Origin: Granulicella sp.
GTDB lineage: Bacteria > Acidobacteriota > Terriglobia > Terriglobales > Acidobacteriaceae
NCBI GenBank assembly: GCA_027339965.1
Contig: DAHWNL010000086.1
Coordinates: 1-59,932, forward strand
Length of the DNA: 59,932 nucleotides
Reading direction: 5' to 3'
Part shown: one piece after another, positions 389 through 53,671 of the stretch
Layout of the letters: the number at the start of each line of letters is the position of its first letter
Numbering within the stretch: the stretch's first letter is position 1
Made by a program: the position numbers and the translations under genes
The notes under the pieces: generated by a model
Told to the model about the DNA's origin: nothing
Database searches by the model: none
Seen by the model: only the letters and a program-made list of their open reading frames with translations

Positions 389-1390
389 ATGTCCGTCTAC
401 TTCATCCCCTCCATCGTCCTTGGCTTGCTGTTGCTCATCACCATTGCCAAAACCTACTACCAGGTGCGCACCTTCACCGCCGGGGTGGTGGAGCGGTTTG
501 GAAGGTTTGACCGCATCGTCCGGCCAGGCCCTCACCTGCTGATTCCGTTTGTCGAACGCATCTACTTCGTCGATCTGCAGGTGAAACAGGCCCAATTCTC
601 AGTGGAGACCAAAACCCGCGACAACGTCTTTGTGCAGATCCCGGTGAGCGTGCAGTACCAGGTGTTGGATGACCGCATCTACGATGCGTTCTACCGCCTC
701 TCCCAACCGAAGAAACAGATCGAGTCCTTTGTCTTCAACTCCATCCTCGGCCACGTCCCCAAACTCACCCTGGATGAAACCTTCGAGCAGCAGTCGGGCA
801 TCTCGGTTGCGGTGAAGAATGAGCTCGACCAGACCATGTCCGGCTTCGGCTTCAACATCCTCACCGCGCTGGTGACGGACATCGTGCCAGACGCCAAGGT
901 GAAGGCGGCGATGAATGATATCAACGCCGCGCAGCGAACACAGGTCGCCGCCCAGGCGCGCGGCGAGGCCGAAAAGATTCTGAAGGTCAAACAGGCTGAA
1001 GCCGAGGCCGAGTCCAAGGCTCTGCAAGGCAACGGCATCGCACGCGAGCGCCAGGCCATCATCGACGGCCTCTCCGCCTCCATCGAACACTTTCAGAAGG
1101 GCGTTCCCAGCACCTCGGCGGGTGAGGTCCTGGCCCTGGTCCTGCTCACCCAATACTTTGACACCTTGCGCGACATCGGCACCCGCGGCGGAACCAATAC
1201 CTTGTTCCTGCCCAACTCTCCCGGTTCCGCAGCCGACTTCCAGACCCAGATTCTGGCCGGCCTGCGTGGCGCACCCGTACCGCTGGAGAGCCTGAACCCA
1301 GCGCGCCCCGAAGAACCCCAGCGCCCTTTCGACCCTCCCGCCCCACCGGTTGGCACCCCGGGAACACCGGAAGCCTTTACCAGCCAATGA
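389..1390 (+). CDS. SPFH/band 7 domain membrane protein (HIR-like subfamily)
   Basis: N-terminal TM helix, ETKTRDNVFV motif, AEAEAESKALQG coiled coil, Pro-rich tail. Confidence 0.92.
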   Translation: MSVYFIPSIVLGLLLLITIAKTYYQVRTFTAGVVERFGRFDRIVRPGPHLLIPFVERIYFVDLQVKQAQFSVETKTRDNVFVQIPVSVQYQVLDDRIYDAFYRLSQPKKQIESFVFNSILGHVPKLTLDETFEQQSGISVAVKNELDQTMSGFGFNILTALVTDIVPDAKVKAAMNDINAAQRTQVAAQARGEAEKILKVKQAEAEAESKALQGNGIARERQAIIDGLSASIEHFQKGVPSTSAGEVLALVLLTQYFDTLRDIGTRGGTNTLFLPNSPGSAADFQTQILAGLRGAPVPLESLNPARPEEPQRPFDPPAPPVGTPGTPEAFTSQ

Positions 1391-2446: not shown

Positions 2447-3565
2447 TTAGCAGTTGTAATTGATCTCTTCTTCTTCTTCGACCCCGTAGCGACGTAGCAG
2501 ATTGGGCAGGTTCTGGCTGAATGCCGCGCGCGGCATCACCACATCGCAACCCGCCTCGACGGCCTTGGCCTTCAGATCGCCCTGCAGGTGGGAGAGGAAA
2601 CCGATGATGGAGGCTGACTTCTTGAGCTTGGCCTTGAGCTTTGGAATCAGCGTCAGCGGCTTGGCGTTGGCATTGTTTAGATCGAAGACGATCAGCGCCG
2701 GCTTGTCCTTGTCTCCTTCGGTCAGCGCGGCTACGCTCTCCTTTTCGTTCTTCACGAACTCCACCTTCACGCCCAGCTTCTTGGCCGTCTCCTGGATCTT
2801 GGCCTGGAAAAACAGCTCTTCAATGAAGAAATAGATGTGCGTCTGGGCTCCCTCCGGGATTGGAATCGGCCGCGGCATCGAGCGGTCGATCGGCTGCGAA
2901 TCGCCAGTGTGTCGATGACCGCTGCGGCGCGTCTGTCCCGGCATCTGGATGGTGGACGGCGGGGTATCGCCAAACTCGCCCGCCTCACGATAGCTGTGAT
3001 CCATGGGGCCCACAAACCCACGCTCGCGCTGCTGGCTACCGCCGTTCTTTCCCTTGCGCTTGAAGCCGCCAATCTGGTTGCCGAAGTTGTCCGGACGATA
3101 GCCATTCCCTCCGCCGTAGGCGTTGGGCGAAGCGGCCTCGGCGCGCAAGTCATTGCCCGGATTCTCACCCCTGCCGGCGCTGCTCGTGCGGCGCTCGCGA
3201 TCCCGGAACTTCTTCTTCCAGCGTTTGCCTGCGGGCTGCTGGCCGGCAGCCGGCAGCTTTCGCGCTCCCTGTGTCCCAGCCGCCGCCAGCGCCAGGCTCT
3301 CGCCCTCCATCACCAGCGGAGCCAAAGGCAGAGCTGCATCACCCTCAGCGCCGGTCACGGCGGGGCCGTCACCGGCGATCTTGTTCTTGCGTTTGCGCCT
3401 CCGCCGCCGGCTGCTCTTGCTCTGGCCCATTCCCGGACCTGGCTGGCCTCCGTCGCTGGCGTTTATCGGCTCCTGTGAGCCGCACTCCTGATTGCCGTCG
3501 TCTCTGCTGCTGTAATCCTCTGCCGCGTCGTACGACGAGAAAGCTGCTATGTTCTGCTCTGACAT
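2447..3565 (-). CDS. Arg/Gly-rich disordered N-terminus fused to an atypical response-regulator receiver domain
   Basis: Start moved to MSEQNIAA (AAGGGG SD upstream). C-terminal ~120 aa has receiver-like layout (IVFDLN, GFLSH, AGCDVVMPR). N-terminal part is low-complexity, with SRRRRRKRK and KRWKKKFRDRERR. Confidence 0.8.
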   Translation of the reverse strand: MSEQNIAAFSSYDAAEDYSSRDDGNQECGSQEPINASDGGQPGPGMGQSKSSRRRRRKRKNKIAGDGPAVTGAEGDAALPLAPLVMEGESLALAAAGTQGARKLPAAGQQPAGKRWKKKFRDRERRTSSAGRGENPGNDLRAEAASPNAYGGGNGYRPDNFGNQIGGFKRKGKNGGSQQRERGFVGPMDHSYREAGEFGDTPPSTIQMPGQTRRSGHRHTGDSQPIDRSMPRPIPIPEGAQTHIYFFIEELFFQAKIQETAKKLGVKVEFVKNEKESVAALTEGDKDKPALIVFDLNNANAKPLTLIPKLKAKLKKSASIIGFLSHLQGDLKAKAVEAGCDVVMPRAAFSQNLPNLLRRYGVEEEEEINYNC

Positions 3566-3836
3566 GGTGCTTTGAATTCCCCTTGCGACTGAAGGCTTGA
3601 GACTCCTTGAACATGCGTCGGTGCCTGGTCCATCGCGACCCAACCGAAACCAGTTCGAAGGCGTGTCAATCGTCCTCTCTCAAGCGTTGACTTGTTGCTC
3701 CATCTGTGTCGATCTTCGGCGCCCTTCGGCGCCCATAGCCGATTGCGGTCCGCCCGCCGCACCCGGCAAACGGATCATGGCATCTTATGGACTTTCTCCA
3801 CTTCGTCTTCCCTGGAAAAACCAGGAAGCCCGTCTT

Positions 3837-3881
3837 TGATTCTTGGATCCCTGATTCTTGGATCCCCGATTCTTGGATCCC
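3837..3881. repeat. 15-bp tandem repeat x3 (YGATTCTTGGATCCC)
   Basis: Units at 3837-3851, 3852-3866 and 3867-3881. Confidence 0.95.
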
Positions 3882-4053
3882 CGACCCCCTCGGCCGAGAT
3901 CCTACTGGCGTTCGTCCGCTCCCAATCTATCGCCGTCCACCGCAATCGGGCATGTCCGCGCGCTCAGCAGATCAACCTCTTTCTTTCGTCTTTGCTGCGT
4001 TCATACGCTAGCGACTCTACCCTGTGCTCTTCGTCCACCCGGCCGGCTCTTTA

Positions 4054-4079
4054 TGGTTCCCTGCTCTGGTTCCCTGCTC
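4054..4079. repeat. 13-bp tandem repeat x2 (TGGTTCCCTGCTC)
   Basis: Units at 4054-4066 and 4067-4079. Confidence 0.9.
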
Positions 4080-4452
4080 TGGGATGCTAAGAATGGATTG
4101 GCGATCACTCACGATTCTGGGCTCGAAGTGGATGGCGTCCCCAAAGATCGTATCCATCCCGCGGAATCTTGCCTGTTCCAAGCTTCCCTCACATCGCCTT
4201 CGTGGCGCGATCTCCGCGACAGACTCTGGGTTCGCCCTGAATCATGATGTAGCGGTGACGGGCTACGCTCTTGGCACCCCTTGTTGATCGCTTCGTGGTA
4301 GTTCGGTATCTACAGAATCCGCGTTGGAGACCCAAGCTCGTGATCGGTTCCTGCTGAAACCCCCGCTTACTTGCTTTGGAGAGCCCACCGGGCATTGAAC
4401 CCACCGGACGGCTCAAAGTGCGCAAGTGACCCTTGGCCTGCGGAACACCTTG

Positions 4453-4481
4453 ATTCTACGCCGGAGAGAAGCTAAGCGCAA
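4453..4481 (-). promoter_or_regulatory. sigma70-type promoter TTGCGC-N17-TAGAAT
   Basis: -35 at 4481-4476, 17-nt spacer, -10 at 4458-4453; predicted +1 near G4446. Confidence 0.7.
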
Positions 4482-4592
4482 CTCCGTTTTGCACGGATGG
4501 TATTCGGATCAAGTTTGTCATTGCATAGACATCGGGCCACCTCCCCTCCCCGGAAGATGGCCCTAGCCCCTAATAGCCAGTCACTAGCCTCC

Positions 4593-4813
4593 CAAAGAGC
4601 CTCCCGAGGACGAAAGTCCCTGAAGAGACCTTGGCTTGACGGTAACCTCCCTCTTCGGGGAGGTTGAATCCCGCAAATCTCCGCCTCAATCCCTTTGCAG
4701 ATCTCGGGGCGTCATCGATTTAAGCGGCTTTCCCGCTTCAAGCAATAAGGAGATTCGAGCTCTGATCTGGTCTGCAACTTCGCACCCTGGACCACGCACC
4801 CACATCCCTACAG
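4593..4813 (-). ncRNA. putative sigma54-dependent structured small RNA (~215 nt; may extend to ~4534)
   Basis: Downstream of a -24/-12 motif. Helices at 4722-4727/4733-4738, 4644-4651/4658-4665 and 4675-4682/4749-4756; terminal G-U-rich hairpin 4598-4630 followed by CUUU. Confidence 0.45.
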
Positions 4814-4823
4814 CGTGAGAAGC

Positions 4824-4840
4824 TGCAATCCTGATACCAA
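4824..4840 (-). promoter_or_regulatory. sigma54 (-24/-12) promoter motif TTGGTATCAGGATTGCA
   Basis: Exact GG-N10-GC spacing with TTGCA at -12; A/T-tract-rich DNA upstream (4845-4940). Confidence 0.6.
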
Positions 4841-5301
4841 ACCGGAAACAACGATTTTTGCCCAAAATCCCAAATTTCGGCCGAATCAGGCCACCAAAAA
4901 TCGGAGTTTGAGTCGTCTCATCTCCGTTTTTCAGAAGAATCTTCGATCTGCCTCCCGGAGGATGCCGCAACCCGATTGGAGATCTGGGAGACCCAACGGC
5001 CCTCGGAAGGTTCGCCGCGAAGCGTCACGCCAGAACGCCAGCGGCAATCCACCCAGCCCAGCAGTCTATGTAGCCACGGACCGATCGTCGCGATGGCTCT
5101 GCTTCCAATTGGCTGAACTCCCGCCCGGCAGAATCTTCGCCTAATCTTCCTGGACACGCCCGGAGACACGCCTGATTTCTTCGGCCAACGAATCGATCCT
5201 CTCACCCTCTCTGGCGACCAAACAACCCGAGCAAGGCGAGGAAACGGGCGGCAGCAAGATTTTGAGCCGGCCAGTGGATTCCATAGAATGAGAGGGGCAA
5301 G

Positions 5302-6708
5302 ATGACCAAGCCAGTGCGTCCCGACCCATATCCACATCAACGTCCACCTCAGCGCCCCCTCTTTCACTCTCCCTGGGTGATCTTCTGGGTGGCTTTCGCA
5401 GTGCGGGTGGCCGTAATCCTGATAGGGCATACCTACCGGATTCGGACTATCGGGGAAAACTTCGACTTTGGTTTTGAGGCGGGCCGGATTGCGCGCTCGC
5501 TGGTAACCGGGCACGGCTACGGGAACCCGTTCAATGGAATGTCGGGACCCACCGCCATGGAACCCCCGCTCTATCCGCTTCTCCTGGCCGCCGCCTTCAA
5601 GTTGTTCGGCGTCTACACTCACGCTGCGGCGATAGCCGTCATGGTAGCCGACAGCGCGTTCTCCGCGCTGGTGGTTCCCGCCATCTATGAGATCGCGCAG
5701 CGCTGCTTTGATGCGCGCGGCATCGCGCGAAGGCGCTCCACCGCAGCGGCGCCGGTGGCGCTGTGGTCTGCCTGGGTGTGGGCCGTCTATCCCCCGGCGC
5801 TGCAGTACGCCGTGCATTGGATCTGGGAGATGTCGCTCACAGTCTGTTTGTTTAGCTGGGCTCTGGTGGTCACGCTGCGGCTACGCGGGGTGGGAGAGAG
5901 CCAACCGACCGGGACAGGGGAAGGATGTAATGGAACAGTCTCGCGGAACGCTCCTCTGCTGTGGTTTGTGCTGGGGGTGTTGTGGGGACTCGTGGCGCTC
6001 TCCAACTCCTCGCTGCTGCTCTGCCTACCCGCCTCCATGGTCTGGGTACTCTGGCCCCGGCTTCGAGCCGGCGGGCTGCGCCGTTCGGCCTTCTGGCAGA
6101 GGGCTATTGCCGGAGCCGCGTTGACCACCCTTGCGTTCTGCGCGGTGCTGGCCCCATGGGTGGTCAGAAATGAGCGTGTGATGCACGCCTTCATCCCCGC
6201 GCGCAGCAACTTTGGGCTGGAGTTGTACAACTCCACATTGCCGTCTTATGACGCATTCCCGTGGGGTGCCGTGCTGCCGCTATGGCCGGGAGACCCCGTC
6301 TTCCAGCAATATGTGCGCATGGGCGAGATCAAGTTCTCCCGCATGCGCCAGCGGCAAGCCATCGCCAACATCCGTTCAGAGCCGGGCCAGATCGCCCGTT
6401 GGACGTTGGATCGGTTTCTGTTCTTCTGGGAGGGTATGCCCCACGCGGCCAACGGCCGGCCCATGCTGGAATTTCTGCGTCAGTTCAGCTATTCCTTTAT
6501 CAGCGCCTGCGGCTTGCTCGGGCTGGCGCTCATGCTGCGCCGGAGGCTCGAAGGAGCGGGGTTGTTTGCCCTGGTCTTCGTGTTGGCTCCCGTGGTCTAT
6601 TACTTTGTCACCATGCAGTCCCGTTTTCGCCATCCGATCGAGCCGCTGATCGCAATTCTCGGCGTGTATCTGTTCCGCTCCACGGAGAAGTCAGAAAGGC
6701 GAGCCTGA
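5302..6708 (+). CDS. GT-C fold membrane glycosyltransferase (ArnT/PMT-like)
   Basis: Polytopic protein; E..RIARSL..GHGY, PTA.EPPLYP, PWVVRN and RFRHPIEP motifs; GAGGGG SD. Confidence 0.8.
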   Translation: MTKPVRPDPYPHQRPPQRPLFHSPWVIFWVAFAVRVAVILIGHTYRIRTIGENFDFGFEAGRIARSLVTGHGYGNPFNGMSGPTAMEPPLYPLLLAAAFKLFGVYTHAAAIAVMVADSAFSALVVPAIYEIAQRCFDARGIARRRSTAAAPVALWSAWVWAVYPPALQYAVHWIWEMSLTVCLFSWALVVTLRLRGVGESQPTGTGEGCNGTVSRNAPLLWFVLGVLWGLVALSNSSLLLCLPASMVWVLWPRLRAGGLRRSAFWQRAIAGAALTTLAFCAVLAPWVVRNERVMHAFIPARSNFGLELYNSTLPSYDAFPWGAVLPLWPGDPVFQQYVRMGEIKFSRMRQRQAIANIRSEPGQIARWTLDRFLFFWEGMPHAANGRPMLEFLRQFSYSFISACGLLGLALMLRRRLEGAGLFALVFVLAPVVYYFVTMQSRFRHPIEPLIAILGVYLFRSTEKSERRA

Positions 6709-6712
6709 AAAG

Positions 6713-7768
6713 ATGCGCACCGTCGAGGTACTCGTCACAGGCGGTTCGGGCTTTTTGGGCGGCGTGCTCAAGCGGCGTCTGCTGCAAGAGGGGTTTGCCG
6801 TCACGAATCTTGATCTGGTGCGCGACGAGGATGCGGGTGCTGAAGGGCTCACCAGCATACAGGGGGATATTCGCGATGCGGGTTTGTTGGCGAGGATCTT
6901 TGCCAACCACAGCTTCGCGGCGGTCTTCCATTGCGCCGCGATGCTGGCCCATGATGTGAAGGACGAGCGGAAGCTGTGGTCCAGCAACGTGGATGGAACC
7001 CGGCTGGTGGCCCAGGCGGCCATCTCCGCCGGCGTGATGAAGATGGTCAACATCTCGTCAAATTGCCTCTGGGCTAAAGGGTTTGCCAGACCAGTGACCG
7101 AGGCGGATGAGCCGGCGCCGGTGGAGTTGTACGGGAGATCCAAGCTTCAGGCGGAACGGGAGTTGCAAGCGCTCTGCGAGCGGCATTCGGAGTTCCGCGT
7201 CATCTCGCTGCGCTGCCCCACCATCATAGACAGCGGACGGCTGGGATTGTTGGCCATCCTGTTTGAGTTCATCCAGGACGGCAAGAAGGTCTGGGTGGTG
7301 GGGGATGGAACCAACCGATACCAGTTCATCTATGCGCAGGATCTGGCTGAAGCTTGTCTGCTGTGCCTGCGTTATGACAAGTCCAATGTGTTTCATATCG
7401 GCTCGGACGCAGTCCCGGCCATGCGCCAGCTGTATGAGAGCGTGATTCGCTCGGCGGGGAGCGCTTCCCGCGTAGCTTCGTTGCCGCGGAGACCGGCCAT
7501 CGCCGCCATGCGGTTGGCGCACAAGCTGAAACTTTCGCCGTTGGGACCGTACCATTACCGGATGATCGCCGAGAGCTTTGTCTTCGACACGCAGAAAATC
7601 CGCAAGGAGTTGGGCTGGAAACCTACGCTGACCAATGAGGCGATGATGCTGCGCGCCTTCTCCTACTATTGCGAAAACCGAAAGGCGATTTACGCCCGGA
7701 CCGACGTGTCTGCGCACTCCAAAGCTGCCCCGATGGGCGTGATCCGATTGTTGAAGTGGCTGTCTTGA
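6713..7768 (+). CDS. NAD-dependent epimerase/dehydratase (extended SDR)
   Basis: TGGSGFLG Rossmann motif; YGRSK catalytic YxxxK. Confidence 0.92.
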   Translation: MRTVEVLVTGGSGFLGGVLKRRLLQEGFAVTNLDLVRDEDAGAEGLTSIQGDIRDAGLLARIFANHSFAAVFHCAAMLAHDVKDERKLWSSNVDGTRLVAQAAISAGVMKMVNISSNCLWAKGFARPVTEADEPAPVELYGRSKLQAERELQALCERHSEFRVISLRCPTIIDSGRLGLLAILFEFIQDGKKVWVVGDGTNRYQFIYAQDLAEACLLCLRYDKSNVFHIGSDAVPAMRQLYESVIRSAGSASRVASLPRRPAIAAMRLAHKLKLSPLGPYHYRMIAESFVFDTQKIRKELGWKPTLTNEAMMLRAFSYYCENRKAIYARTDVSAHSKAAPMGVIRLLKWLS

Positions 7769-9818: not shown

Positions 9819-10475
9819 TTACTTCTTCGGCGCAGCCTTCTTGACAGCCTTCTTTGCGGCCTTCTTGACGGCCTTCTTCGCAGGCGCCTTCTTGACGGCC
9901 TTCTTCACAGCTTTCTTTGCAGCTTTCTTCGTTGCCAAGGTCTTACCTCTCATAGTCGATTTTTTACTGCTGGTGCTCTTGTTGCCGACTGCCTTTTTTG
10001 AGGCAGACTTACCGCCGCGCAGAGCACCCGTTGCTTTCGCGGCAGAACTTGAACTCTTTTTAGCGGCCTTCTTCGCCGCTACCTTGACGGCCTTCTTCGC
10101 CGGAGCCTTGGCTGCCTTCTTCGCCGGACCCTTGACGGCCTTCTTCGCCGGAGCCTTGGCTGCCTTCTTCGCCGGACCCTTGACGGCTTTCTTCGCCGGA
10201 GCCTTGACGGCCTTCTTCGCCGGAGCCTTTCTGGGAGGCCGGGGCGAAGTGCTGGGAGTTGGCGGCGCGGCCTGGGTAAAAGCCTCAGACGATGAGGTTC
10301 CCGCTGCGGGAGCGAAGAGTTCGGCTTCTTCCACGCGATTGACCGAGATCAGATTGAACTCTTCCTCTTCTTCTTCATCGAGCGAATTGATGTCGGCAGT
10401 CTCGCCAGCCTCATCTTCTTCTCCTTCTCCATAGCCCGCCGCATAAAGCTTGATGGTCTCTTCGTCCTGCAACAT
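9819..10475 (-). CDS. histone H1-like protein (acidic N-terminus, PAKKA repeats)
   Basis: GGGAGAGGA SD; E/D-rich N-terminus; repeated (A/G)PAKKA(V/A)K. Confidence 0.85.
   Translation of the reverse strand: MLQDEETIKLYAAGYGEGEEDEAGETADINSLDEEEEEEFNLISVNRVEEAELFAPAAGTSSSEAFTQAAPPTPSTSPRPPRKAPAKKAVKAPAKKAVKGPAKKAAKAPAKKAVKGPAKKAAKAPAKKAVKVAAKKAAKKSSSSAAKATGALRGGKSASKKAVGNKSTSSKKSTMRGKTLATKKAAKKAVKKAVKKAPAKKAVKKAAKKAVKKAAPKK
10082..10225. repeat. 24-bp coding tandem repeat x6 (APAKKAVK units)
   Basis: Consensus CCTTGACGGCCTTCTTCGCCGGAG; the first four units alternate between two variants. Confidence 0.9.
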
Positions 10476-12946: not shown

Positions 12947-14749
<1,803 letters not shown>

Positions 14750-53596: not shown

Positions 53597-53671
53597 GGCC
53601 AGATAGCTCAGTGGTAGAGCGCGGCCCTGAAAAGGCCGGCGTCGGCGGTTCGATCCCGTCTCTGGCCACCA
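53597..53671 (+). tRNA. tRNA-Phe (GAA)
   Basis: Acceptor stem GGCCAGA/TCTGGCC, encoded CCA, anticodon arm CGGCC-CTGAAAA-GGCCG, GGTTCGATCC T-arm; TGcTATACT extended -10 about 140 nt upstream. Confidence 0.98.

What the first reader, a model, noticed from the sequence alone, without database searches (positions are those of the whole stretch)
3566..4481. Candidate ~880-nt multi-domain structured RNA of unrecognised family behind a canonical sigma70 promoter
Seen: the minus-strand promoter TTGCGC-N17-TAGAAT is followed by a sequence that pairs extensively up to the next ATG (3565). 5' hairpin: 4369-4427 (ACUUGC/GCAAGU, CUUUG/CAAAG, GAGCC/GGCUC). Domain 2 is closed by 4340-4346/4102-4108 and 4314-4323/4160-4169; it contains hairpins GGAUGG/CCAUCC (4130-4159), GUAG/CUAC, GUAGC/GCUAC and GAUUC-A-GGG-CGAA-CCC-A-GAGUC. 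Domain 3 is closed by a perfect 11-bp helix whose strands lie 200 nt apart (3939-3949/3739-3749). It abuts an 11-bp hairpin (3749-3774) whose three U-G pairs exist only on the minus strand. Possible pseudoknot: 4442-4447 with 4174-4179. Tandem-repeat expansions at 3837-3881 and 4054-4079 fall between helices, as expected for variable linkers. Established: structured bacterial ncRNAs of this size (OLE, ROOL, GOLLD) are rare. Inference: this is an undescribed large ncRNA or giant riboregulatory leader.
Basis: partly seen in the sequence, partly recalled or inferred. Interest (0 to 1): 0.9.

Follow-up and report, generated by a model that had tools for sequence, protein, structure and literature searches.

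The report
Long gene leader beside RNA sponge
The long stretch flagged as a giant structured RNA is most likely just an unusually long, fast-changing front end of an ordinary messenger RNA, but right next to it lies a small, apparently undescribed RNA whose conserved core is the mirror image of a second small RNA elsewhere in the genome, suggesting one soaks up the other in these soil bacteria.

Summary
The promoter and the listed pairings are in the sequence, but the 880-nt 'ornate RNA' is not supported. Perfect helices are no more frequent than in shuffles, the domain-closing helices are broken in the five closest relatives, and length varies from 305 to 881 nt in 56 relatives. The stretch is a long 5' leader: a conserved sigma70 promoter, then straight into the ribosome site of a family-wide gene (Arg-rich disordered arm plus atypical receiver domain). 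Only local hairpins are kept. The better finding lies just upstream (4523-4813, minus): a sigma54-promoter, enhancer-flanked, terminator-ended small RNA with a covarying terminator, matched by one metatranscriptome contig. Its conserved core is the reverse complement of the invariant seed of a second, unannotated small RNA (G000:C49:111549-111569). All 27 family genomes in which I found the first RNA also hold the second. Neither is in Rfam. Best reading: a sigma54-induced RNA sponge for an Hfq-type sRNA, like CrfA/SisA; pairing in vivo is untested.

The parts
4894..4936 (.). Tandem enhancer-like sites upstream of the sigma54 promoter (putative binding sites of a bacterial enhancer-binding protein)
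   Evidence: A strict pattern for the distal site hits 19 of 50 loci, 17 of them 95-97 bp upstream of the -24 box; both sites are visible in many more rows. Activator not identified.
4825..4839 (-). sigma54 (-24/-12) promoter
   Evidence: Pattern in 51 of 64 loci against 1% of shuffles; rpoN present in the genome; promoter moves with the RNA when relocated.
4523..4813 (-). sigma54-driven small RNA, about 290 nt here (164-320 nt in 51 relatives); candidate RNA sponge
   Evidence: one metatranscriptome contig, 217 nt, no mismatches, at 4589-4805; model R1 finds one copy in 21 of 121 family genomes.
4580..4593 (-). Conserved core (consensus GGAGGCCAGUGAC), reverse complement of the partner sRNA seed at G000:C49:111549-111569
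   Evidence: (duplex -31.4 kcal/mol).
4523..4563 (-). Terminator-like hairpin of the small RNA (U tail weak in this genome, clear in most relatives)
   Evidence: 7 of 12 pairs change on both sides, 0 of 500 shuffles reach this; not picked up by the simple scan in the window.
4453..4481 (-). sigma70 promoter (-35 at 4476-4481, -10 at 4453-4458); predicted start near 4446
   Evidence: Conserved in alignments; 56 of 64 loci; like pattern in 31 of 40 loci from across the family.
3566..4446 (-). Long non-coding 5' leader, 881 nt, the longest of 56 measured (305-881)
   Evidence: identity to G005 0.84 against 0.66 for the spacer and 0.77 upstream.
3838..3884 (-). 15-nt triplication, private insertion
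3749..3774 (-). Locally conserved hairpin
   Evidence: 93% of cells paired in 17 sequences, one pair changed on both sides.
3595..3685 (-).
   Evidence: Outer helix 90% and inner helix 82% paired in 17 sequences, four inner pairs changed on both sides; whole-structure controls weak (44 and 25 of 500).
3579..3584 (-). Shine-Dalgarno sequence
   Evidence: Invariant in 19 of 19 aligned leaders.
2447..3565 (-). 372-aa protein: disordered N-terminal arm with an invariant RRRR stretch and PMDHSYR motif, C-terminal atypical receiver (REC) domain
   Evidence: 116 of 121 family genomes; alignment; REC model pLDDT 84 matches response-regulator receivers, best E 1.2e-6; no Pfam family at cut-off.

Best explanation
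Two transcription units lie in tandem. (1) The flagged stretch is the 5' untranslated leader of a single-copy, family-wide gene for an Arg-rich-arm receiver protein. It is transcribed from the conserved sigma70 promoter, runs without a terminator into the ribosome site, grows and shrinks by insertions, and keeps only local hairpins (one at the 5' end that differs by lineage, one at 3749-3774, one beside the ribosome site). Shown: promoter, non-coding nature, length variation, loss of the long-range helices. Inferred (about 0.35): the hairpins set translation or stability of the message, most simply by feedback from the protein's own Arg-rich arm. (2) Upstream, an enhancer-dependent sigma54 promoter makes a 164-320-nt RNA ending in a terminator. 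Its conserved core pairs over 13-15 nt with the invariant, anti-Shine-Dalgarno-containing seed of a second sRNA (about 110-120 nt, own -10 box, terminator, long U tail). Shown: both genes' anatomy, complementarity, co-occurrence. Inferred (about 0.7): when the activator fires, the sigma54 RNA binds the partner on Hfq and lifts its repression of target mRNAs, as CrfA does to SisA-D.
For: Leader: lengths 305-881 in 56 close loci, 186-470 in 31 of 40 family loci; mean folding z -0.66 sense, -0.47 antisense, 22 leaders; lineage-specific 5' hairpins, whose model finds 3 further loci of its own lineage at E<1e-6 and none of the window's lineage among 31 sources. Sponge: promoter 51 of 64; terminator covariation; RNA contig; promoter, core and terminator relocated together in G276 and G332; partner 20-mer exact in 28 of 121 family genomes plus one variant with terminator, reversed-pattern control 1 hit; all 21 model hits and 6 more found by pattern lie in those 29 genomes; 44 distinct partner loci carry hairpin plus 6-9 U; five loci (L089, L182, L185, L204, L325) lose the core's own hairpin yet keep the partner-complementary half; mid-lineage RNAs carry a second partial copy at their 5' end; Hfq present, CsrA not found.
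Against: No start site is mapped. The RNA evidence is one contig in 1 of 3 runs of one study; contigs give no strand or ends and may hold DNA. The leader is better conserved than four-fold sites in 8 of 8 pairs, though within the range of 20 crudely defined intergenic segments (median 0.81), so undetected structure may remain. Co-occurrence is within one sub-clade, so genomes are not independent. The partner seed is invariant where the two pair, so no compensatory change could be seen; 7 of 86 cores carry a U-to-C change that makes an A-C mismatch and 8 lose the first G (core positions 3-9 were selected by the search pattern). In 2 of 29 partner genomes (G302, G328) no clear sigma54 RNA was found. 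The core also folds into its own small hairpin, which would compete. No evidence was obtained that the protein binds RNA.
Confidence: 0.7

Rival explanations
1. The 880 nt are a stand-alone large ornate ncRNA (OLE/ROOL/GOLLD-like).
For: No Rfam match; sense strand folds somewhat better than antisense (z -1.92 against -0.32); conservation above four-fold sites.
Against: Named helices lost in the closest relatives; consensus fold of 19 leaders only -19.5 kcal/mol with covariation term 0.08; length 305-881; no terminator before the ATG (alignments 21, 22).
Confidence: 0.05
2. The leader is a ligand-sensing riboswitch or attenuator.
For: Conserved 5' hairpins right at +1 in two other lineages (covariation score 0 of 500 shuffles in one, 87 of 500 in the other); conserved hairpin beside the ribosome site.
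Against: The 5' motifs differ between lineages and one model does not find the others; no shared aptamer; no intrinsic terminator in the leader; the downstream gene is not metabolic.
Confidence: 0.1
3. The leader is mostly tolerated filler between a distant promoter and the gene, with no regulatory role.
For: Private repeat expansions and frequent indels; folding near shuffle level; identity within the range of other intergenic segments.
Against: A leader of at least 186 nt is kept in all 31 family loci where a promoter was called; identity 0.84 against 0.66 in the adjacent spacer; local hairpins kept.
Confidence: 0.2
4. The sigma54 RNA is not a sponge: the shared motif is a DNA site used in two places, or the RNA acts on mRNAs or titrates a protein, and the complementarity is a by-product of common origin.
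For: The core is nearly palindromic; no compensatory change seen.
Against: In both genes the motif lies a fixed short distance before a terminator on the strand that makes the two transcripts complementary; the commonest change (C to U, 14 of 86) keeps a G-U pair; only two other exact matches to an 11-nt complement exist in G000, both within long ORFs.
Confidence: 0.25

Closest known systems
CrfA sponge and SisA-D sRNAs of Caulobacter crescentus (PMC12559287; abstract and section 7 read)
   Same: An independently transcribed RNA whose G/A-rich stretch pairs with the conserved, CCUCC-containing single-stranded core of a terminator-ended sRNA.
   Different: Different sequences and phylum; one partner copy here, not four; sigma54 promoter with enhancer-like sites; here the pairing is predicted only.
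QrrX sponge and Qrr1-4 of Vibrio cholerae (PMC9732341; abstract and outline seen)
   Same: Stand-alone sponge with its own activator that inactivates base-pairing sRNAs.
   Different: QrrX is activated by a LysR-type regulator; here the candidate sponge has the sigma54 promoter.
sigma54-dependent sRNAs such as NrsZ (PMC4253122; search listing only) and CrcZ (recalled)
   Same: Small RNA under a -24/-12 promoter needing an enhancer-binding activator.
   Different: No Rfam match; those act on mRNAs or proteins, not on another sRNA's seed.
OLE, ROOL, GOLLD (PMC12286853; passages read)
   Same: Size range and absence of coding capacity.
   Different: That paper reports all their stems supported by covariation; here the long-range stems are lost in close relatives and the region is contiguous with an ORF.
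Long autoregulatory leaders such as E. coli rne or rho (recalled, not looked up)
   Same: Long leader in front of a protein with an Arg-rich disordered region; local conserved hairpins.
   Different: The protein is a receiver-domain protein, not a nuclease or helicase; feedback not shown.

Membership tests
OLE/ROOL/GOLLD large ncRNAs | Match to the family model | tested here: not met
   No Rfam 15 hit at gathering score in the window except a tRNA; only chance hits at E<=10.
OLE/ROOL/GOLLD large ncRNAs | Multi-stem architecture kept with covariation | tested here: not met
OLE/ROOL/GOLLD large ncRNAs | Discrete transcript with its own 3' end | tested here: inconclusive
   No minus-strand terminator in the scan, which also missed the upstream terminator; no end-mapping data.
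RNase P RNA, 6S RNA, tmRNA | Being the genome's copy of the housekeeping RNA | tested here: not met
   Each lies elsewhere in G000: C34, C24, C49.
Acido-1 RNA (RF01686) | Match over the gathering score | tested here: not met
   Best 18.6 bits against 50, on other contigs.
Riboswitch | Aptamer conserved across lineages upstream of the same gene | tested here: not met
   Model R2 hits only its own lineage.
Riboswitch | Ligand-dependent folding | not testable with these tools
   Needs in-line probing.
sRNA sponge (CrfA/QrrX type) | Own promoter and terminator, separable from neighbours | tested here: met
sRNA sponge (CrfA/QrrX type) | Conserved complementarity to the seed of an sRNA | tested here: met
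sRNA sponge (CrfA/QrrX type) | Compensatory changes between the two RNAs | tested here: inconclusive
   Partner seed invariant over the paired part.
sRNA sponge (CrfA/QrrX type) | Hfq binding and antagonism in vivo | not testable with these tools
   hfq homologues present; no experiment.
CsrB/RsmY-type protein decoys | A CsrA/RsmA partner in the genome | tested here: not met
   PF02599 not found in G000, 98.9% complete.
Canonical response-regulator receiver | (beta-alpha)5 fold with the beta3 aspartate | tested here: met
   (D invariant).
Canonical response-regulator receiver | Conserved lysine at the end of beta5 (canonical residue recalled) | tested here: not met
   The motif reads Pro-Arg there in the alignment; below Pfam and NCBIfam cut-offs.

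The most novel reading that the evidence does not exclude
The locus is one regulatory module: the Arg-rich-arm receiver protein is a new kind of RNA-binding response regulator that binds its own long leader, and it is wired to the neighbouring sigma54-induced sponge and its partner sRNA in a signal-gated RNA circuit. The sponge-partner part alone I put at about 0.7; the link to the protein rests only on adjacency (19 of 21 model hits lie beside the gene) and the invariant RRRR motif.
Probability: 0.12. Interest if true: 0.8.

Novelty: new member of a known kind. Interest (0 to 1): 0.48.

Why it matters
Acidobacteria are abundant soil bacteria for which my searches found no described base-pairing sRNA circuit. 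A conserved sRNA with a 20-nt invariant seed and a sigma54-controlled antagonist gives a defined, directly testable regulatory pair in cultured genera, found from sequence alone. The negative result also matters: hand-found helices in a GC-rich 880-nt leader are at chance level and should not be counted as a new ornate RNA.

Tried and rejected
Rfam on the window, on 13 relatives and on 15 sRNA loci gave only tRNA, tmRNA, rRNA and one Acido-Lenti-1 hit about 3 kb from the gene. Small ORFs in the leader: none with a ribosome site, indels break frames. The metatranscriptome contigs did not cover the leader or the ORF, and 2 of 3 runs laid nothing; this is no evidence of silence. Short-pattern searches for the core were too noisy and were replaced by model R1. 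The class draw gave hits only inside the family (7 of 121) and the partner pattern only inside the family (11 of 201 phylum genomes). The partner seed does not target the downstream gene's start region (rank 3031 of 3846 crude genes); the top-ranked predicted targets rest on crude gene calls and were not checked for conservation. The G271 partner-pattern hit has no terminator and was dropped as chance, as was the L214 core hit. Single-sequence structure prediction of the full protein was uninformative (pLDDT 43). Leader length tracks the length of the protein's disordered arm (rho 0.74, 31 loci), but this follows lineage and is not used as evidence. Four look-ups in earlier findings returned nothing.

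Full report
Setting. The window is contig C87 of genome G000. The gene at 2447-3565 (minus) has a match in 41 of 41 relatives and 116 of 121 family genomes; record titles of the 80 best loci are mostly Granulicella and other Acidobacteriaceae. These tallies include genomes flagged unpublished (G029, G034, G035, G036, G038, G040; G242, G258; also G038, G242, G367), and two of the 15 rows behind the structure model come from G034 and G040; none of the RNA conclusions depends on them.

Observation. The promoter, the ATG and the listed helices are in the sequence. They are not above chance: counts of perfect helices equal shuffle means, and 78 of 400 random genome windows of this length hold a perfect 11-bp helix. 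Folding z is -1.92 and -1.57, with 4 of 60 shuffles as stable. The 13 local windows over the 5' hairpin and domain 2 run from -1.10 to +1.37. Over 22 of the 23 leaders given (the script stopped on time) mean z is -0.66 sense and -0.47 antisense. Rfam has no match; RNase P RNA, 6S RNA and tmRNA lie elsewhere in the genome.

Comparative test. A DNA search found the region in 6 of 41 genomes, counting G000. In the five closest leaders D2a keeps 2-4 of 7 pairs, D2b 5-7 of 10, D3 3-6 of 10, the pseudoknot 3-6 of 6. In the 19-row alignment D3 reaches 6 and 8 of 10 in the two nearest rows, so the count depends on the alignment, but it is 0 of 10 in 11 of the 13 further rows. Kept are the hairpin at 3749-3774 and a long hairpin before the ribosome site (88% paired in 17 rows, but 44 and 25 of 500 shuffles reach the covariation measures). 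The sigma70 pattern is found in 56 of 64 loci that had both a start and the upstream landmark (of 81 examined), against 9% of shuffles. Leader length is 305-881 nt in those 56, the window being the longest, and 186-470 nt in 31 of 40 loci picked from across the family. Two other lineages have their own 5' hairpins, and a model of one does not find the window's lineage. 69 of 74 indels are not multiples of three. The leader is more conserved than four-fold sites in 8 of 8 pairs after a neutral simulation; against G005 it is 0.84 identical, the spacer 0.66, the upstream DNA 0.77, and 20 crudely called intergenic segments have a median of 0.81, some of them probably small genes. Conclusion: a long, partly constrained 5' leader, not an ornate RNA.

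The gene. The protein has a disordered arm with invariant RRRR and PMDHSYR motifs in 11 of 11 aligned rows and a receiver fold with the beta3 aspartate but Pro-Arg where the canonical lysine is expected (canonical residues recalled). Feedback of the Arg-rich arm on the leader is my inference only.

The upstream RNA. The best-conserved non-coding block of the whole intergenic region is 4534-4600, hit in 54 of 80 loci against 3-7 for most of the leader. It is the 3' end of a unit that starts at a sigma54 promoter (51 of 64 loci, 1% of shuffles) with tandem enhancer-like sites about 96 bp upstream. rpoN is present. The terminator covaries (7 of 12 pairs, 0 of 500 shuffles, 26 rows; relatedness can inflate this). 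One contig of a public metatranscriptome, 217 nt without mismatch, lies at 4589-4805, starting 8 nt inside the predicted start; it is 1 contig in 1 of 3 runs and gives no strand. Model R1 finds one copy in 21 of 121 family genomes (several were in the training set), 19 of them beside the gene; in G276 and G332 promoter, core and terminator sit elsewhere together. None was found outside the family in a class draw of 121.

The partner. A scan of G000 for the complement of the core found an intergenic site on contig C49 directly before a terminator with a 7-U tail. This element is matched at E<1e-7 in 20 of 24 same-genus genomes. Its 20-nt seed is exact in 28 of 121 family genomes, with two 2-mismatch hits, one real (G071, terminator present) and one chance (G271), and one hit for the reversed control. 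44 distinct loci show seed, hairpin and 6-9 U, most with a -10 box 60-95 nt upstream. It has no Rfam match. All 21 model hits, four more found by pattern (G099, G274, G326, G338) and two more (G071, G300) lie in the 29 partner genomes; G328 has only a divergent copy and G302 no clear one. The pattern check covered only the 40 fetched upstream regions and a few more, not all 92 partner-free genomes. The seed pairs with the window's core at -31.4 kcal/mol and at -22.9 to -32.4 with the cores printed (one row, L070, picked a wrong site). Five loci lose the core's own hairpin but keep the complementary half. Against this: one sub-clade, no compensatory change, 7 of 86 cores with a mismatch.

Mechanism and comparison. 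The partner has the anatomy of an Hfq-dependent repressor sRNA (invariant CCUCC-containing seed, terminator, U tail; Hfq present; CsrA not found). The sigma54 RNA has the anatomy of its sponge. This works like CrfA and SisA-D in Caulobacter, where a G/A-rich stretch pairs with a CCUCC core (PMC12559287, abstract and section 7) and like QrrX (PMC9732341, abstract), without sequence kinship shown. For OLE, ROOL and GOLLD all stems are reported as covariation-supported (PMC12286853, passages), which the leader fails.

Novelty. Eight literature searches listed nothing on these RNAs. Term searches in the main text of three motif surveys found no acidobacterial names (PMC11109978, PMC8632094, PMC5737381), and passages of PMC2864571 list only Acido-1 and Acido-Lenti-1. 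Their supplements were not opened and could hold these motifs; subscription journals are not covered. Verdict: the flagged ornate RNA is not supported; the neighbouring sponge-sRNA pair is a probable new member of a known kind. Interest 0.48.

Noticed in passing
L242:2970-3106 (+) = G000:C49:about 111470-111605: Unannotated sRNA of about 110-120 nt with an invariant 20-nt seed, terminator and U tail, between the glmU-like operon and the tmRNA gene; candidate partner of the sigma54 RNA.
   Followed up: yes
L183:1636-1699 (+) and 11 aligned loci (A7): Conserved 5' leader hairpin with an internal loop in one lineage of the family, with some covariation; not compared with Rfam on its own beyond three whole loci.
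   Followed up: partly
L194:2132-2199 (+) and 13 aligned loci (A8): A different two-hairpin motif at +1 of the short (about 220 nt) leaders; 98% paired, little covariation.
   Followed up: partly
G000:C70, C27, C17: Three Hfq-family matches in one genome.
   Followed up: no
window 9819-10475 (-): 218-aa ORF with an acidic N-terminus and many PAKKA repeats, histone H1-like by eye.
   Followed up: no
window 389-1390 (+), 5302-7768 (+), 12947-14749 (+), 53597-53671 (+): Ordinary neighbours: SPFH/Band 7 protein and NAD-dependent epimerase, a membrane protein with a weak STT3-like hit, a LepA-like GTPase by eye, tRNA-Phe.
   Followed up: no
L053:701-745 (-): Acido-Lenti-1 RNA match about 3 kb upstream of the gene in one relative.
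   Followed up: no
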